A DNA stretch of 64,000 nucleotides from NCBI GenBank assembly GCA_048884965.1, contig JBHLQH010000003.1, positions 67,304-131,303 of the forward strand. The letters are read 5' to 3'. The stretch is from Candidatus Thorarchaeota archaeon (lineage in GTDB: Archaea; Asgardarchaeota; Thorarchaeia; Thorarchaeales; Thorarchaeaceae). This document shows, piece after piece, positions 12,681 to 17,158 of the stretch. The translations under genes were made by a program, and so were the position numbers. The notes beneath the pieces were generated by a model. The model made no database searches and was not told the DNA's origin. It saw nothing but the letters and a program-made list of their open reading frames with translations. Position 1 is the first letter of the stretch, and each line of letters opens with the position of its first letter.

Positions 12681-13259
12681 CTATTCACCAATCCAGAGAC
12701 GGTGCCATCTATTTTCTTTCGTTCTGATAATGATAAGTAGAAAAACTGGGACTATGACAATGTGTGTAAGTAGATTGGCTACATAGTATCCTGTCATTAT
12801 GTCTGTACTAAGAACATTAGCGAAAAATATGCACAATGGTCCAGCGATTGCATAGGGATCAGCTATCCATGGCCAGAGTATTGGATTATACCAGTGATGG
12901 AGTATGTCTACCAAGAGATGCGAAACGATACCAAGAATGGCTGATGCGACAAGGGCGCGTGATATGAGGCACTTCTGCTTTAATTCTTGTTTATCCAGTT
13001 TGAAGATTGAACCAATCACTGTAGGGTATGCATATCTTGTTATCAAAACTGCTAGTACTAGACCTCCTGAAAGGGCTCCAACAAGACTATGCAGTACAAA
13101 ATGATCTGGAAATACTCCTTGAAAGAACAGGAATAGCAAGGGTACCTCTATATCTGGAATCACTGCTCCTACTAGCAGTGCTGGCATATTGAGTCTTTTA
13201 CTTGTTTTAGAAAGGCCATATCCAAATGGATAGTGGAATAGAGTGAATGGCATGTTCAT
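12681..13259 (-). CDS. DUF4184 / membrane metal-dependent hydrolase
   Basis: MPFTLFH, PDIE, HS and SHLLVD motifs. Confidence 0.85.
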   Translation of the reverse strand: MNMPFTLFHYPFGYGLSKTSKRLNMPALLVGAVIPDIEVPLLFLFFQGVFPDHFVLHSLVGALSGGLVLAVLITRYAYPTVIGSIFKLDKQELKQKCLISRALVASAILGIVSHLLVDILHHWYNPILWPWIADPYAIAGPLCIFFANVLSTDIMTGYYVANLLTHIVIVPVFLLIIIRTKENRWHRLWIGE

Positions 13260-13345
13260 TCCTTGAATACCGAAGCAATATGAATGTCTGCCTTTTCAAT
13301 AGTCTAAAAAGTACAAGAGCAATTGCTGGTGCAGGTGTTAACAGA

Positions 13346-13861
13346 ATGGGTCTCTTCGAGTTTGATGGAAAAAAACCTACGGTACATCACAATGCGTATG
13401 TATCACCTCGAGCATCTCTACTTGGCGATGTAGAGATTGGTGAGGATAGTAGTGTCTGGGAATTTGCTGTGCTCAGAGGCGACATGAACTACATCAAGGT
13501 GGGACGCGGTTCATCAATTCAGGATAATGCAACGGTTCATTGCGAATTCATGAATCCTACAAATATAGGCGACAACGTAACGGCAGGTCATAACTGCGTC
13601 ATTCATGGTGCTGAGATCGGAGATAATGTTGTGATTGGGATTGGAGCAATTGTACTATCTGGAGCCAAGATTGGAGAGAATAGTGTCATCGGAGCAGGTT
13701 CTGTGGTCACAGAGAGAACTGAGATACCTCCAAACTCACTGGTCTTGGGCATTCCTGGAAAAGTAGTCAAAGAGGTTTCCGAAGGAATGATTGAAGGATT
13801 CAGGGCCAATGCACAACTCTACGTTGAACTAGGAAAGAAGCACAAAGAAATACATGGGTAA
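13346..13861 (+). CDS. Gamma carbonic anhydrase family (hexapeptide repeat) protein
   Basis: LRGD, QDNATVH and GHNCVIHG motifs; RBS precedes ATG13346. Confidence 0.93.
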   Translation: MGLFEFDGKKPTVHHNAYVSPRASLLGDVEIGEDSSVWEFAVLRGDMNYIKVGRGSSIQDNATVHCEFMNPTNIGDNVTAGHNCVIHGAEIGDNVVIGIGAIVLSGAKIGENSVIGAGSVVTERTEIPPNSLVLGIPGKVVKEVSEGMIEGFRANAQLYVELGKKHKEIHG

Positions 13862-13907: not shown

Positions 13908-15488
13908 ATGACTAGTCATTCCCTTGAAGCAATCATGATTCTCGACAGAGGTGGAGCTCCTAGGTTCTATATGCAGCTTGACCCCCGTGCATTCGATATG
14001 GACCCCTTTCTTGGATCGAGTTTTTTTGCTGCAATAGACATGTTCTCAACACAGATTATCGAACAGAGCGAACCTTTTTTCCAGGTTGACTATGGAGCAA
14101 GAGTCTTCACTATCATTCACGGAGTCGAAACAAACCTGGTGGCTGTATGTAAAAGGCGTCTTTCAGATGAAACCTTGGAGATATTGGACTCCCTTCTTGC
14201 AGAATTCGAGCTTGACTGGATTCCCGCTGCTGAGGCATTCGAATTGGACGACTCATTCATCGAGGTCTATCTAGAGTCCTTTGGAGAGCGTGTATTGAAC
14301 AAGATTTCATTCCAAGAGATTCCTGATTCATGGGTTCCGTATTTTACTGATAGACCTGACGACCTTCTTCCTGATTTTAGCCCTGTCATCAAATTCATCA
14401 ATGGTTCCAGAAGTGTGAAAGAGATACGCGAATTGAGTGGAGTCACTCAGAGTGAAATGTTAGTTGATATGTCCAAGTTATGGGCACAGAGAGTCATCCG
14501 ATTTCGAAACATGCTAAGCTTCAAGGACTTCCTGAGTGCTCGGACGAAATTCCTCAGGTACACTCAGGCTACATCCACCGAGGTACGGGGTCTCTTAGAC
14601 CTACATCCCGAGATGGTTGGGATAATTCCACGACTAGCAGGTCTGATAGACGGTCGTCGGACCGTGAGGGAACTGCTTGATGAGCTCGGAAGCTATTACG
14701 ATGAACGAGAGGTGCTTCGAGTGCTGGATTATCTACGAGAGAATGAAGTAATCGAAGTTCTTTCCCATGAGAAAAGAAGGATACTGCTTGCAAAGGAATT
14801 GGTTTCTTTCTCTCTACGTTCAGCAGAAGAAATCTGGGGCATACGTGATATCACAACAATCGTAAGGACTATCGTGAACAGGGTTCAAGCGCCGGAGATT
14901 ATAGGTCAACTCACCTTGAAAGATGGACAATGGTTTGTGGATTTTGATTTTAAGCCGCTAGAAGGGCTTGAAACTAACAGATTGAGTCTCATGTATGGTG
15001 AGTGGATGAAGATACTTGCCCAATTCTCAGCAGCACTTGATAGAAAGCAACTTAATGCATTCATCATTTCGCTCACACAGAAGTTCTTCAATCGAATCAT
15101 AGATCGTTATGCTATCTTTGATTTGCGGGGGTTGGAGGAGTTCTCATTCTGGCTAGAACAACTGGAAACAGAGAGCTGGCCTCGTGCAGAAATTGACCGG
15201 ACCTACCCTCTTGAGAAAATCGATAATACTGTACTAGAGGATTTGGTCCATATTCTTATTGAACGTGGACAGACAATCTATGGGTCTGAGATGATTGTTG
15301 GGATATCTGGCTCAGCGGGAATCCCTCTTGTTGATGGAATGCCTGTGACAAGATCTATGGGAAGCCGAAGTGATTCATTCAAGTATTTCATGAATGAGTA
15401 CTCAAAAATCAGTTCCGCAGCTAAACTGACTGTTCTTATTCTCTCACGACAACGTGGAATCCCTATACCCTCGGAGATTACCATGTAG
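13908..15488 (+). CDS. Longin domain + tandem winged-helix protein (NPRL2/GATOR1-like architecture)
   Basis: N-terminal Asgard-type longin motif DPFLGSSFFAAIDMF; two wHTH repeats FINGSRSVKEI and LIDGRRTVREL. Confidence 0.65.
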   Translation: MTSHSLEAIMILDRGGAPRFYMQLDPRAFDMDPFLGSSFFAAIDMFSTQIIEQSEPFFQVDYGARVFTIIHGVETNLVAVCKRRLSDETLEILDSLLAEFELDWIPAAEAFELDDSFIEVYLESFGERVLNKISFQEIPDSWVPYFTDRPDDLLPDFSPVIKFINGSRSVKEIRELSGVTQSEMLVDMSKLWAQRVIRFRNMLSFKDFLSARTKFLRYTQATSTEVRGLLDLHPEMVGIIPRLAGLIDGRRTVRELLDELGSYYDEREVLRVLDYLRENEVIEVLSHEKRRILLAKELVSFSLRSAEEIWGIRDITTIVRTIVNRVQAPEIIGQLTLKDGQWFVDFDFKPLEGLETNRLSLMYGEWMKILAQFSAALDRKQLNAFIISLTQKFFNRIIDRYAIFDLRGLEEFSFWLEQLETESWPRAEIDRTYPLEKIDNTVLEDLVHILIERGQTIYGSEMIVGISGSAGIPLVDGMPVTRSMGSRSDSFKYFMNEYSKISSAAKLTVLILSRQRGIPIPSEITM

Positions 15489-15560
15489 TACTCTATCACG
15501 ACAATGGTTATCTGATAAGCATCACATTAGATAATTTGTGCGCATAGAAGGAGGACCTGT

Positions 15561-16088
15561 ATGAGTCCAACATATCTCTTAAAGCTGGTAACGGTCGGTT
15601 CCGCTTCTGTCGGGAAAACAAGTATGATAATTCGCTATTCAACAGGAACGTTTCGAGAGCACTATTCTCCAACTCTGGGAACCGGCTTTGCGTACAAGAA
15701 GATGATGCTTGATGACAACTTTGCGACTCTTCAGATTTGGGATCTGGGATCTCAGGACTTCTTGGAGCGCGTTCGTTCGAATTACTATATTGGCACACAA
15801 GGCGTCCTCATTGTATTCGATGTGACGAGTTGGGAATCATACAATGATGTCATCGAGTGGAAGAACGAGGTAGATAGGAATATTGATGAGCCTTATGCAG
15901 CTCTCCTCATTGGTAATAAGACCGATCGTGCCATAGATCGTGTCGTTGCAACAGAGGAGGGTGAGATGCTTGCATCGCAATTGGGTATGGAGTATCTTGA
16001 AGTATCAGTTCTATTGAATAAGAATGTGAATGAAACTTTTGCCAAAATAACCAGAAAAATCATCCATCTATATGATGAAGAAGAATGA
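15561..16088 (+). CDS. Rab-like small GTPase
   Basis: G1 GSASVGKTS, G2 YSPTLG, G3 WDLGSQ, G4 NKTD, G5 EVSVL; no CAAX/CC tail. Confidence 0.93.
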   Translation: MSPTYLLKLVTVGSASVGKTSMIIRYSTGTFREHYSPTLGTGFAYKKMMLDDNFATLQIWDLGSQDFLERVRSNYYIGTQGVLIVFDVTSWESYNDVIEWKNEVDRNIDEPYAALLIGNKTDRAIDRVVATEEGEMLASQLGMEYLEVSVLLNKNVNETFAKITRKIIHLYDEEE

Positions 16089-16135: not shown

Positions 16136-17158
16136 ATGAAACCATCAGAAATCTTGGTGTTGGGTGCAACTGGATATGTAGGATCACGACTTGTACACTC
16201 TTTGATAGATAGTGGCTATTCAGTACGAGCATCCTACCGCACTGAGGAAAAAGCAAGACAGTGCACCTGGTTTGGGCTTGAAGGGGTTACATCCGTTAAA
16301 GCCGATGTACTGGAATACGAATCACTTCTGGAGGTATCTCGGGATATAGATGTCATCTATTATCTAATACATTCGATGTATGGAAGTGGCAATTTTGTAC
16401 AAACAGATCGAAGAGCAGCAAGGAACACGGCTTCTGTGGCAAAGCATAATGGCGTGCAACGAATTGTGTACCTTGGTGGGTTAGGTGAGGAGAGCGGCAA
16501 GCTAAGCAAGCATCTGAAATCGAGGATTGAGGTGCGGGACATCTTGGAAACGAGTGAAATACCTGTCACTACGTTGAGAGCGGCAATGATTGTGGGGTCT
16601 GGAAGCGCATCATTCGAGATAATGCGTTATCTTGTAGATAGACTTCCTGTCATGACCACGCCGAGGTGGGTTCGTACTCTTAGTCAACCCATTGCAATTA
16701 GCAATGTACTACAATATCTTGTTGGTGCTCTTGAAGAATCACGTACGATAGGAAAGGTTCTTGACATTGGCGGCCCTCAAATACTACGATATCACGATCT
16801 CATGACAACCTATGCTGAAGAAGCCGGACTAATCAGACGACTGATTATCCCTCTTCCTATCTTATCTCCACAGCTTTCCTCTTATTGGGTGGACTTGGTA
16901 ACGCCAATCCCTGCTTCCATCGCTCGACCCTTGGTTGAGGGTCTACAGAATGAAACCATTTGTACCAATACTGATATCCTAGGAATGATACCACTTGACT
17001 TGTTGTCTATACGTGATGCCATTAGACTTGCACTCAGTCAACGGATGCACCTCTCCTCTAAGAAGTTCATCCCGGAATGGACACAGCCAAATGACCCTCC
17101 ATGGAGTGGTTCCAAACAACAGCTCCTTCCAATTCACTTTCCACTTCTTCGTCTGTAG
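16136..17158 (+). CDS. Atypical SDR / NAD(P)-binding epimerase family protein
   Basis: GATGYVG, YYLIHSM and GSGSASFE motifs. Confidence 0.88.
   Translation: MKPSEILVLGATGYVGSRLVHSLIDSGYSVRASYRTEEKARQCTWFGLEGVTSVKADVLEYESLLEVSRDIDVIYYLIHSMYGSGNFVQTDRRAARNTASVAKHNGVQRIVYLGGLGEESGKLSKHLKSRIEVRDILETSEIPVTTLRAAMIVGSGSASFEIMRYLVDRLPVMTTPRWVRTLSQPIAISNVLQYLVGALEESRTIGKVLDIGGPQILRYHDLMTTYAEEAGLIRRLIIPLPILSPQLSSYWVDLVTPIPASIARPLVEGLQNETICTNTDILGMIPLDLLSIRDAIRLALSQRMHLSSKKFIPEWTQPNDPPWSGSKQQLLPIHFPLLRL

What the first reader, a model, noticed from the sequence alone, without database searches (positions are those of the whole stretch)
13908..16088. NPRL2/GATOR1-like longin-wHTH protein paired with a non-canonical Rab-like GTPase
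Seen: a 526-aa protein with an N-terminal longin-type motif and two winged-helix repeats (VIKFINGSRSVKEIRELSGVTQSEMLVDMSKLWAQRVI; LAGLIDGRRTVRELLDEL...VLDYLRENEVI), 72 bp upstream of a co-oriented small GTPase. Known: eukaryotic NPRL2/NPRL3 (GATOR1, the RagA/B GAP) are longin + wHTH proteins with a similar I(D/N)G-x-R-x-V-x-x-I segment, and longin proteins are GEF/GAP platforms. Inference: a two-gene prokaryotic GTPase switch with a GATOR1-like regulator, a possible precursor of nutrient or trafficking signalling. Bacterial DUF4388-type wHTH proteins are an alternative relationship.
Basis: partly seen in the sequence, partly recalled or inferred. Interest (0 to 1): 0.75.

Follow-up and report, generated by a model that had tools for sequence, protein, structure and literature searches.

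The report
Archaeal NPRL2-like regulator with own GTPase
A Thorarchaeota (Asgard archaea) genome encodes a true relative of the eukaryotic nutrient-signalling protein NPRL2 directly upstream of its own Rab-like GTPase; the protein family was already reported, but the conserved pairing gives a regulator-GTPase pair that can be tested at the bench.

Summary
A 526-aa ORF (13908-15488, +) is followed after 72 nt by a 175-aa Ras/Rab-family GTPase (15561-16088, +).

The NPRL2 reading holds.
- Residues 1-132 fold as a longin domain.
- Two winged helices follow.
- A diverse family profile hits only human NPRL2 in the PDB (E 7e-10), and hhalign gives 92% probability.
- The 13 best Foldseek hits are all GATOR1/SEAC complex entries.

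The linkage is strong. In 42 of 46 testable loci of the fused clade, and 17 of 19 of a sister clade, the GTPase lies downstream. The linked GTPases form one clade apart from 21 paralogues in this genome. They share an odd G3 box, WD(L/M)GSQ.

New details:
- The last 85 residues are a four-helix module with no known fold relative. It is a separate gene in the sister clade.
- This genome has one copy only and no DEPDC5/Iml1 homologue.
- The client GTPase is Rab-like, not Rag-like.
- No Arg sits in the loop that I infer corresponds to the one holding NPRL2 Arg78.

The NPRL2-like family in Thorarchaeota was published by Liu et al. (2020/2021). This scan has also seen the same system in other Thorarchaeota genomes. 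GAP, GEF or effector activity is untested.

The parts
13908..15488 (+). Gene for the 526-aa NPRL2-like protein (P0001): longin, tandem winged helices, a helical region and a C-terminal helical module
   Evidence: ORF and translation; about 100 homologues, mostly Thorarchaeota; AF2 model at pLDDT 81; NPRL2 hits
13908..14303 (+). Longin domain, residues 1-132. Family motifs are GxP in the beta1-beta2 loop (P18) and DYGxR (Y62, G63, R65) in the beta3-beta4 loop
   Evidence: DSSP order bbabbbaa; VIA-align Z 10-12.4 to sigma/mu-adaptin, TRAPP and Sec22b longins over residues 3-138; column counts
14385..14765 (+). Two winged-helix units (residues about 160-212 and 234-286), homologous to the NPRL2 C-terminal domain
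   Evidence: hmmsearch of profile A4 against the PDB: NPRL2 121-328, E 7.4e-10; hhalign 91.6%; weak Pfam HTH_NPRL3 hits in 5 of 40 members
14766..15167 (+). Helical region (residues 287-420) that starts with the invariant E-K-R-R-x-L-x-x-K motif. It is the end of the about 420-aa core shared by all clades
   Evidence: Invariant columns E288, R290, R291, L293, K296; DSSP; core-only proteins of 417-425 aa in clades B and H
15231..15485 (+). C-terminal four-helix module (residues 442-526, motifs RGQxIYG and EYSxLGPAAKLTLLIL). It is fused here and is a separate gene of about 109 aa in clades B and H
   Evidence: Stand-alone homologues; L049 6266-6595 and L067 6976-7302; model at pLDDT 82; no PDB relative; no Pfam hit
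15489..15560 (+). 72-nt intergenic spacer with GGAGG at 15550-15554, 6 nt before the GTPase ATG
   Evidence: Read directly from the sequence
15561..16088 (+). Gene for the cognate 175-aa Rab-like small GTPase (P0002). G1 is GSASVGKTS, the switch I Thr is in YSPTLG, G3 is WDLGSQ, G4 is NKTD and G5 is SVL. It has no roadblock C-terminal domain and no prenylation Cys
   Evidence: Pfam Ras 1e-44; best PDB matches are Thorarchaeota Rab 7ezb, Rab35 and Rab1; motif table; tree

Best explanation
This is a two-gene operon of a Thorarchaeota genome. Gene 1 encodes a homologue of eukaryotic NPRL2/NPRL3. It has an N-terminal longin domain and tandem winged helices, then an archaea-specific helical region and a four-helix module. 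That module is a separate small gene in the sister clade. Gene 2 encodes a dedicated Rab-like GTPase with a family-specific G3 box, WDxGSQ, and an intact catalytic Gln.

I infer that the NPRL2-like protein binds this GTPase and sets or reads its nucleotide state. [quoted passage not shown] Because this genome has a single copy, it probably acts as a homodimer.

Shown here: the folds, the homology to NPRL2, the conserved adjacency and the co-divergence of the two genes. Inferred only: physical binding, GAP activity and dimerisation. The confidence given is for the whole statement with GAP as the activity. That the two proteins are a cognate functional pair of some kind I put at about 0.8.
For: - Homology: profile A4 against the PDB hits NPRL2 at E 7.4e-10 with no competing hit. 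hhalign gives 91.6% probability, E 8e-7. The 13 best Foldseek hits are all chains of GATOR1/SEAC complex entries, at E 2.6e-6 to 4e-3 over 330-492 columns, while generic longins reach only about 1e-2. ESM Atlas structure neighbours include three eukaryotic NPR2 clusters.
- Longin fold: VIA Z 12.4.
- Linkage: the GTPase lies within 300 nt downstream in 42 of 46 clade-A loci and 13 of 19 clade-B loci; 4 more clade-B loci have one gene inserted between.
- Co-divergence: all 58 linked GTPases form one clade (100/100) that excludes 21 paralogues of this genome, and the A-linked GTPases are monophyletic (100/100). The regulator tree shows the same A/B split.
- Translation signal: GGAGG lies 6 nt before the GTPase start.
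- GTPase competence: G1, the switch I Thr, the catalytic Gln and NKxD are conserved.
- Literature: NPRL2 is the catalytic GAP subunit for RagA (PMC8534245). Liu et al. report an NPRL2-like family in most Thorarchaeota MAGs (10.1101/2020.10.19.343400).
Against: - No binding or activity data exist, and no complex prediction could be run here.
- The Pfam NPR2 model does not match.
- The longin domains do not align at sequence level.
- The beta4-beta5 loop (residues 71-74) has no Arg. From my own secondary-structure reading of the NPRL2 sequence, this is the loop that should hold Arg78.
- The conserved Arg65 (DYGxR) sits one hairpin earlier and is His in 8 of 40 members.
- Most longin-domain regulators are GEFs or platforms, not GAPs (PMC8534245).
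- Related core-plus-module pairs in clade H sit beside an ODP-family di-iron protein instead of a GTPase. A fused sub-clade, A', has no adjacent GTPase. The scaffold is therefore not tied to a GTPase in every lineage.
Confidence: 0.45

Rival explanations
1. The NPRL2-like protein is an exchange factor (GEF) or a passive longin platform for the Rab-like GTPase, as Mon1-Ccz1, TRAPP, DENN and Ragulator are. It is not a GAP.
For: Most longin or roadblock regulators are GEFs or platforms (PMC8534245; PMC3747258). No Arg sits in the loop inferred to correspond to the one holding the NPRL2 Arg finger. The best rigid-body longin matches are TRAPP and adaptor longins.
Against: The specific relatives found by sequence profile and by whole-chain fold are NPRL2/NPRL3, members of the longin GAP group. 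A GxP motif lies at the place of the GP motif that PMC12290439 reports only in GAP-type longins. MglB shows that a GAP of this fold class need not supply an Arg (own knowledge).
Confidence: 0.25
2. The protein is an effector or output device. The GTPase, in one nucleotide state, controls the winged-helix part, which binds DNA or another partner, giving a GTPase-gated regulator.
For: There are two winged helices, and the first is basic (net +5, pI 10.9). Weak Pfam hits go to DNA-binding wHTH families (MarR, TrmB-type and PqqD-like). In clade H the same scaffold pairs with an ODP sensor protein instead of a GTPase, as expected of a signal-output scaffold.
Against: The whole protein is strongly acidic (net -22, pI 4.9) and the second winged helix is acidic. 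In NPRL2/NPRL3 the homologous domains serve protein-protein contacts (PMC8534245).
Confidence: 0.12
3. The resemblance to NPRL2 is convergent: a generic longin plus generic winged helices, possibly of the bacterial DUF4388 type. The adjacency to the GTPase has no functional meaning.
For: The Pfam NPR2 HMM gives no hit. Foldseek TM-scores are low (0.18-0.27). With the narrow alignment A1 the PDB hit was only E 0.014.
Against: The diverse profile raises the NPRL2 hit to E 7.4e-10 over about 200 residues with no rival. No DUF4388 hit appears in 40 members at E up to 1. Adjacency holds in 59 of 65 testable loci of clades A and B, counting 4 with one inserted gene, and the trees are matched.
Confidence: 0.04

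Closest known systems
NPRL2-NPRL3 of GATOR1 (yeast Npr2-Npr3 of SEACIT), the GAP for RagA/Gtr1; PDB 6CES, 7T3A-C, 8ADL, 9O5A
   Same: Both have an N-terminal longin domain followed by tandem winged helices. Profile-level homology covers NPRL2 residues 121-328. Whole-chain fold matches rank first. A Gly/Pro motif lies in the beta1-beta2 loop. Both are linked to a small GTPase.
   Different: This genome has one copy, not a heterodimer of paralogues. It has no DEPDC5/Iml1. The client is a 175-aa Rab-like GTPase without a roadblock domain, not a Rag heterodimer. The protein carries an extra helical region and a four-helix module. No Arg sits in the loop inferred to be equivalent to the one holding Arg78. 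The Pfam NPR2 model does not match.
Asgard 'NPRL2-like' family of Liu et al. (bioRxiv 10.1101/2020.10.19.343400; Nature 2021), asCOG 'NPRL2-like longin domain'
   Same: This is very probably the same family. [quoted passage not shown] That fits the distribution found here: 65 of 85 genomes of the window's family and few elsewhere.
   Different: The held text says nothing about a dedicated downstream GTPase, the fused or split helical module, or the WDxGSQ G3 box. I could not see their figure 5c or their supplements.
Asgard LAMTOR1-like roadblock, Rab-like GTPase and DENN operon (Liu et al.), and bacterial MglA-MglB
   Same: In each, a prokaryotic small GTPase is encoded next to a longin or roadblock regulator.
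   Different: The regulator architecture differs (roadblock or DENN versus NPRL2-like longin plus winged helices). The GTPase clade also differs: the linked GTPases here form their own clade.
Thorarchaeota Rab (PDB 7EZB; PMC10933270)
   Same: It is the best solved relative of the GTPase (E 1.1e-33). It is also a short Rab-like protein without a prenylation tail.
   Different: It is a different paralogue, on a different contig of Thorarchaeota SMTZ1-45 from the orthologue of this pair (L030). That paper states that Asgard GTPases are generally not in operons with regulators.

Membership tests
NPRL2/NPRL3 (GATOR1/SEACIT longin subunits) | N-terminal longin domain | tested here: met
   AF2 DSSP shows bbabbbaa at residues 6-132. 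VIA Z is 10-12.4 to longins over residues 3-138.
NPRL2/NPRL3 (GATOR1/SEACIT longin subunits) | NPRL2-type C-terminal domain (tandem winged helices) detectable by sequence profile | tested here: met
   hmmsearch of A4 against the PDB hits NPRL2 at E 7.4e-10 over residues 121-328, with the next hit at 0.069. hhalign gives 91.6%. The 13 best Foldseek hits are all chains of GATOR1/SEAC complex entries.
NPRL2/NPRL3 (GATOR1/SEACIT longin subunits) | Match to Pfam NPR2 (PF06218) or NPR3 above the gathering score | tested here: not met
   No NPR2 or NPR3 hit for P0001 or any of 40 members at E up to 1. There is none in the whole genome. Only sub-threshold HTH_NPRL3 hits appear, in 5 of 40 members (17.8 bits against a cut-off of 27.2).
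NPRL2/NPRL3 (GATOR1/SEACIT longin subunits) | Catalytic arginine finger on a longin loop (NPRL2 Arg78) | tested here: inconclusive
   Residues 71-74 (beta4-beta5 loop) have no Arg. The conserved Arg65 in DYGxR lies in the beta3-beta4 loop (R in 32 and H in 8 of 40 members). No residue-level superposition was possible. The placement of Arg78 in the beta4-beta5 loop of NPRL2 is my own reading of its sequence.
NPRL2/NPRL3 (GATOR1/SEACIT longin subunits) | GP motif before beta2, reported in GAP-type longins (PMC12290439) | tested here: inconclusive
   The family has G-x-P (G16 in 34 of 40, P18 in 38 of 40) at the beta1-beta2 loop, not a contiguous GP.
NPRL2/NPRL3 (GATOR1/SEACIT longin subunits) | Heterodimer of two paralogues plus DEPDC5/Iml1 | tested here: not met
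   This genome (95.7% complete) has one copy. There is no IML1 match (best E 0.15). Other Thorarchaeota genomes hold two or three paralogues.
NPRL2/NPRL3 (GATOR1/SEACIT longin subunits) | Client is a Rag-type GTPase (G domain plus roadblock C-terminal domain) | tested here: not met
   The neighbour is 175 aa. It matches Pfam Ras at 1e-44 and Gtr1_RagA only at 0.014. Its best PDB matches are Rab proteins.
Rab-like small GTPase (Ras superfamily) | Pfam Ras match and G1-G5 boxes | tested here: met
   Ras scores 152 bits. G1, the switch I Thr, the catalytic Gln and NKxD are conserved. G3 deviates as WD(L/M)GSQ in 59 of 60 orthologues, and G5 is SV(R/K/L).
Rab-like small GTPase (Ras superfamily) | C-terminal Cys prenylation motif of eukaryotic Rabs | tested here: not met
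   The protein ends ...HLYDEEE, and no orthologue has a Cys in its tail.
   It is not among the hits at E up to 1 for P0001 or any of the 40 family members.

The most novel reading that the evidence does not exclude
The operon is a minimal, free-standing form of the GATOR1-type switch. A homodimeric NPRL2-like protein, helped by its four-helix module, acts as the GAP of one dedicated Rab-like GTPase, using a catalytic arrangement other than the Arg78 finger. This would show that NPRL2-type longin GAPs existed in archaea before they specialised on Rag GTPases and nutrient signalling.
Probability: 0.3. Interest if true: 0.75.

Novelty: new variant of a known kind. Interest (0 to 1): 0.55.

Why it matters
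Asgard archaea carry dozens of eukaryote-like small GTPases; this genome has 24 such loci. They also carry many longin or roadblock proteins. Who regulates whom is almost unknown. PMC10933270 states that the genome layout rarely pairs them.

Here a real NPRL2 homologue is tied to one specific GTPase clade across Thorarchaeota. The pair can be expressed and assayed directly. The result would show whether the longin GAP mechanism of GATOR1, folliculin and C9orf72-SMCR8 predates eukaryotes, and on what kind of GTPase it first acted.

The value is tempered because the protein family itself is already in the literature.

Tried and rejected
Synteny was taken from the search for related loci instead.
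- Pfam NPR2 was searched against the protein, 40 family members and the whole genome, with no match.
- The narrow alignment A1 gave only E 0.014 against the PDB and 52.7% in hhalign. The diverse alignment A4 was needed.
- hhalign restricted to the two longin domains gave no alignment. Arg78 equivalence therefore could not be settled by sequence.
- VIA-align on the full model listed only generic longins. It gave no ranges for the C-terminal domains.
- The C-terminal module was folded alone. Foldseek's best E was 1.8 and VIA-wide's best Z was 6.9, to dynein fragments. Pfam gave nothing. I assign it no fold family.
- The 420-aa gene between the module and the GTPase in some clade-B loci is a serine beta-lactamase-family protein, not a second copy of the regulator.
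- The flanking genes in the window (hexapeptide transferase, NmrA-like) are not conserved neighbours: 6 and 1 tblastn hits across the 78 loci.
- Supplements of Liu et al. and Shen et al. 2019 (JBC) were not held.
- No complex (multimer) prediction is offered by the tools.
Full report
**Observation.** The window holds a 526-aa ORF at 13908-15488 (+) and a 175-aa ORF at 15561-16088 (+), separated by 72 nt. A GGAGG lies 6 nt before the second start codon. The second protein matches Pfam Ras at 1e-44. The first has no Pfam or NCBIfam assignment.

**Organism and family.** The first protein has about 100 homologues. Nearly all are labelled Thorarchaeota, with a few other Asgard labels, and all are annotated as hypothetical. 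In a survey of 400 species-level genomes of the phylum, 82 have a match at E 1e-10 or better. That includes 65 of 85 genomes in the window's family and all 6 other genomes of its genus. The window's own genome (95.7% complete) has a single copy.

**Fold.** AlphaFold2 with a 40-sequence alignment gave mean pLDDT 81. The model has these parts:
- Residues 6-132 have the order beta-beta-alpha-beta-beta-beta-alpha-alpha, which is the longin order.
- Two helix-helix-strand-strand units (winged helices) lie at about 160-212 and 234-285.
- A helical region spans 287-420.
- A low-confidence linker spans 421-441.
- A helical module spans 442-526.

VIA-align matched residues 3-138 to adaptor sigma/mu, TRAPP and Sec22b longins at Z 10-12.4. 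With the whole model, the 13 best Foldseek hits in the PDB are all chains of GATOR1, SEAC and related complex entries. Their E-values run from 2.6e-6 to 4e-3 over 330-492 aligned columns. Generic longin and roadblock proteins start only at about 6e-3. TM-scores are low (about 0.2-0.27), as expected for a multi-domain chain with flexible domain orientation. ESM Atlas structure neighbours also include three eukaryotic NPR2 clusters.

**Sequence-level homology.** The narrow alignment A1 gave only a marginal NPRL2 hit (E 0.014; hhalign 52.7%). I then built a more diverse alignment, A4, from 50%-identity cluster representatives (37 sequences, 15-74% identity). Its profile hits human NPRL2 at E 7.4e-10 (41 bits), covering NPRL2 residues 121-328. 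The next hit is a MarR protein at 0.069, and yeast Npr2 appears at 0.25. hhalign of A4 against a vertebrate NPRL2 alignment gives 91.6% probability and E 8e-7, for residues 124-287 against NPRL2 154-328. The second repeat aligns with NPRL2 SPGTTVRDLI and the following DER helix. I take homology to NPRL2 over the end of the longin domain and both winged helices as established. The curated Pfam NPR2 model nevertheless does not match.

**Catalytic features.** The family conserves G-x-P at the beta1-beta2 loop (P18 in 38 of 40). PMC12290439 describes a GP motif specific to GAP-type longins at this place. The family also conserves D-Y-G-x-R (Y62 and G63 invariant; R65 in 32 of 40, His in 8). By strand count, Arg65 lies in the beta3-beta4 loop. 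From my own secondary-structure reading of the NPRL2 sequence, Arg78 lies in the beta4-beta5 loop. The equivalent loop here (residues 71-74) has no Arg. The longin domains do not align by sequence, and the tools give no residue-level superposition. The Arg-finger question therefore stays open. Invariant R290 and R291 at the start of the helical region are further candidates.

**The GTPase.** Its best solved relatives are the Thorarchaeota Rab (7EZB), Rab35, Rab1 and Ypt1. It has no roadblock C-terminal domain and no prenylation Cys. G1, the switch I Thr, the catalytic Gln and NKxD are intact. G3 reads WD(L/M)GSQ in 59 of 60 linked orthologues. A Ser sits where the canonical DxxGQ has its Gly, and a Gly sits one residue earlier.

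**Linkage.** The search for related loci returned 77 loci. By identity and tree, the regulators fall into these groups:
- Clade A: 42-74% identical, fused proteins of about 526 aa. It includes the sub-clade A'.
- Clade B: 35-39% identical, with a core of about 422 aa.
- Clade H: about 31-34% identical, with Heimdall or Bathyarchaeia labels.

Among loci with enough downstream sequence, the GTPase lies within 300 nt downstream in 42 of 46 clade-A loci and 13 of 19 clade-B loci. Four more clade-B loci have one inserted gene, a serine beta-lactamase-family protein. The four clade-A exceptions are second copies in genomes that also have a linked copy. Those complete enough to enter the regulator tree (L011, L057, together with L040) form the sub-clade A'.

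In a maximum-likelihood tree, all 58 linked GTPases form one clade (100/100) that excludes 21 paralogues of this genome. The A-linked GTPases are monophyletic (100/100). The regulator tree shows the matching split: A plus A' at 0.998 and B at 0.78, rooted on clade H. The pair has therefore been inherited and duplicated as a unit. The flanking genes in the window (hexapeptide transferase at 13247-13861, NmrA-like at 16136-17158) are not conserved neighbours.

**The C-terminal module.** In clades B and H, the last 85 residues are encoded by a separate gene of about 109 aa. In clade B it lies between the core and the GTPase (L049: 4962-6269, 6266-6595, 6622-7161). Folded alone (pLDDT 82), the module is a four-helix bundle with no convincing relative (Foldseek best E 1.8; VIA-wide best Z 6.9) and no Pfam match. 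In clade H, the gene between core and module is an ODP-family di-iron protein (Pfam ODP 2.4e-50), and no GTPase is nearby. The core-plus-module scaffold can thus serve partners other than a GTPase.

**Differences from GATOR1.** This genome has no second paralogue and no Iml1/DEPDC5. Its Rag-like G domains lie elsewhere, on contig 39, not next to this gene.

**Mechanism.** I infer that the NPRL2-like protein, probably as a homodimer, binds the co-encoded Rab-like GTPase and controls its nucleotide state. GAP is the most likely activity because the nearest relatives are the longin GAPs. GEF or platform, and effector, remain live alternatives. None of this was tested biochemically, and no complex prediction was available.

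**What is known.** Liu et al. (bioRxiv 10.1101/2020.10.19.343400) already state that a family with the NPRL2 domain organisation occurs in most Thorarchaeota MAGs and a few Lokiarchaeota MAGs. 'NPRL2-like longin domain' is an asCOG category (PMC9834061). In the held literature I found no mention of the dedicated GTPase, the split or fused module, or the WDxGSQ box. PMC10933270 notes that Asgard GTPases are generally not in operons with regulators. This scan has reported the same system before in other Thorarchaeota genomes. My results were obtained independently and agree with those reports.

**Verdict.** This is a new variant (operon and architecture) of a known kind. Interest is moderate.

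Noticed in passing
L067:4977-7302 (also L066, L068, L069): In the most distant clade (Heimdall- and Bathyarchaeia-labelled contigs), the NPRL2-like core is followed by an ODP-family (oxygen-binding di-iron, metallo-beta-lactamase fold) protein and then the small helical module. No GTPase lies within 5 kb. The same scaffold may couple to a redox or oxygen sensor.
   Followed up: partly
L011:4992-6590, L012:4992-6749, L040, L057: Sub-clade A' consists of second, fused copies (N-terminus ...SGxPKF...) in genomes that also hold the GTPase-linked copy. They are followed by opposite-strand genes and have no GTPase. They could be an NPRL3-like partner, but this was not tested.
   Followed up: partly
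L063:6705-7967 (also L051, L062, L065): In one clade-B lineage, a serine beta-lactamase-family gene (Pfam Beta-lactamase 1.5e-24) is inserted between the small module gene and the GTPase gene.
   Followed up: partly
G000, 24 places; G000:C39:13139-14188: The genome holds 24 Ras-superfamily GTPase loci. None is more than 41% identical to the linked one. Two adjacent genes on contig 39 give the best Gtr1/RagA matches (E 1.6e-10 and 4e-9).
   Followed up: no
Genomes G135, G138, G228, G079, G080: The C-terminal module alone (profile positions about 435-525) is found in other Asgard families where the core is not detected at E 1e-10. It may accompany more diverged cores.
   Followed up: no
L049:4653-4952: A 99-aa ORF without any Pfam match ends 10 nt before the clade-B core gene. 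There is no counterpart in the window, where a hexapeptide-repeat gene ends 46 nt upstream.
   Followed up: no
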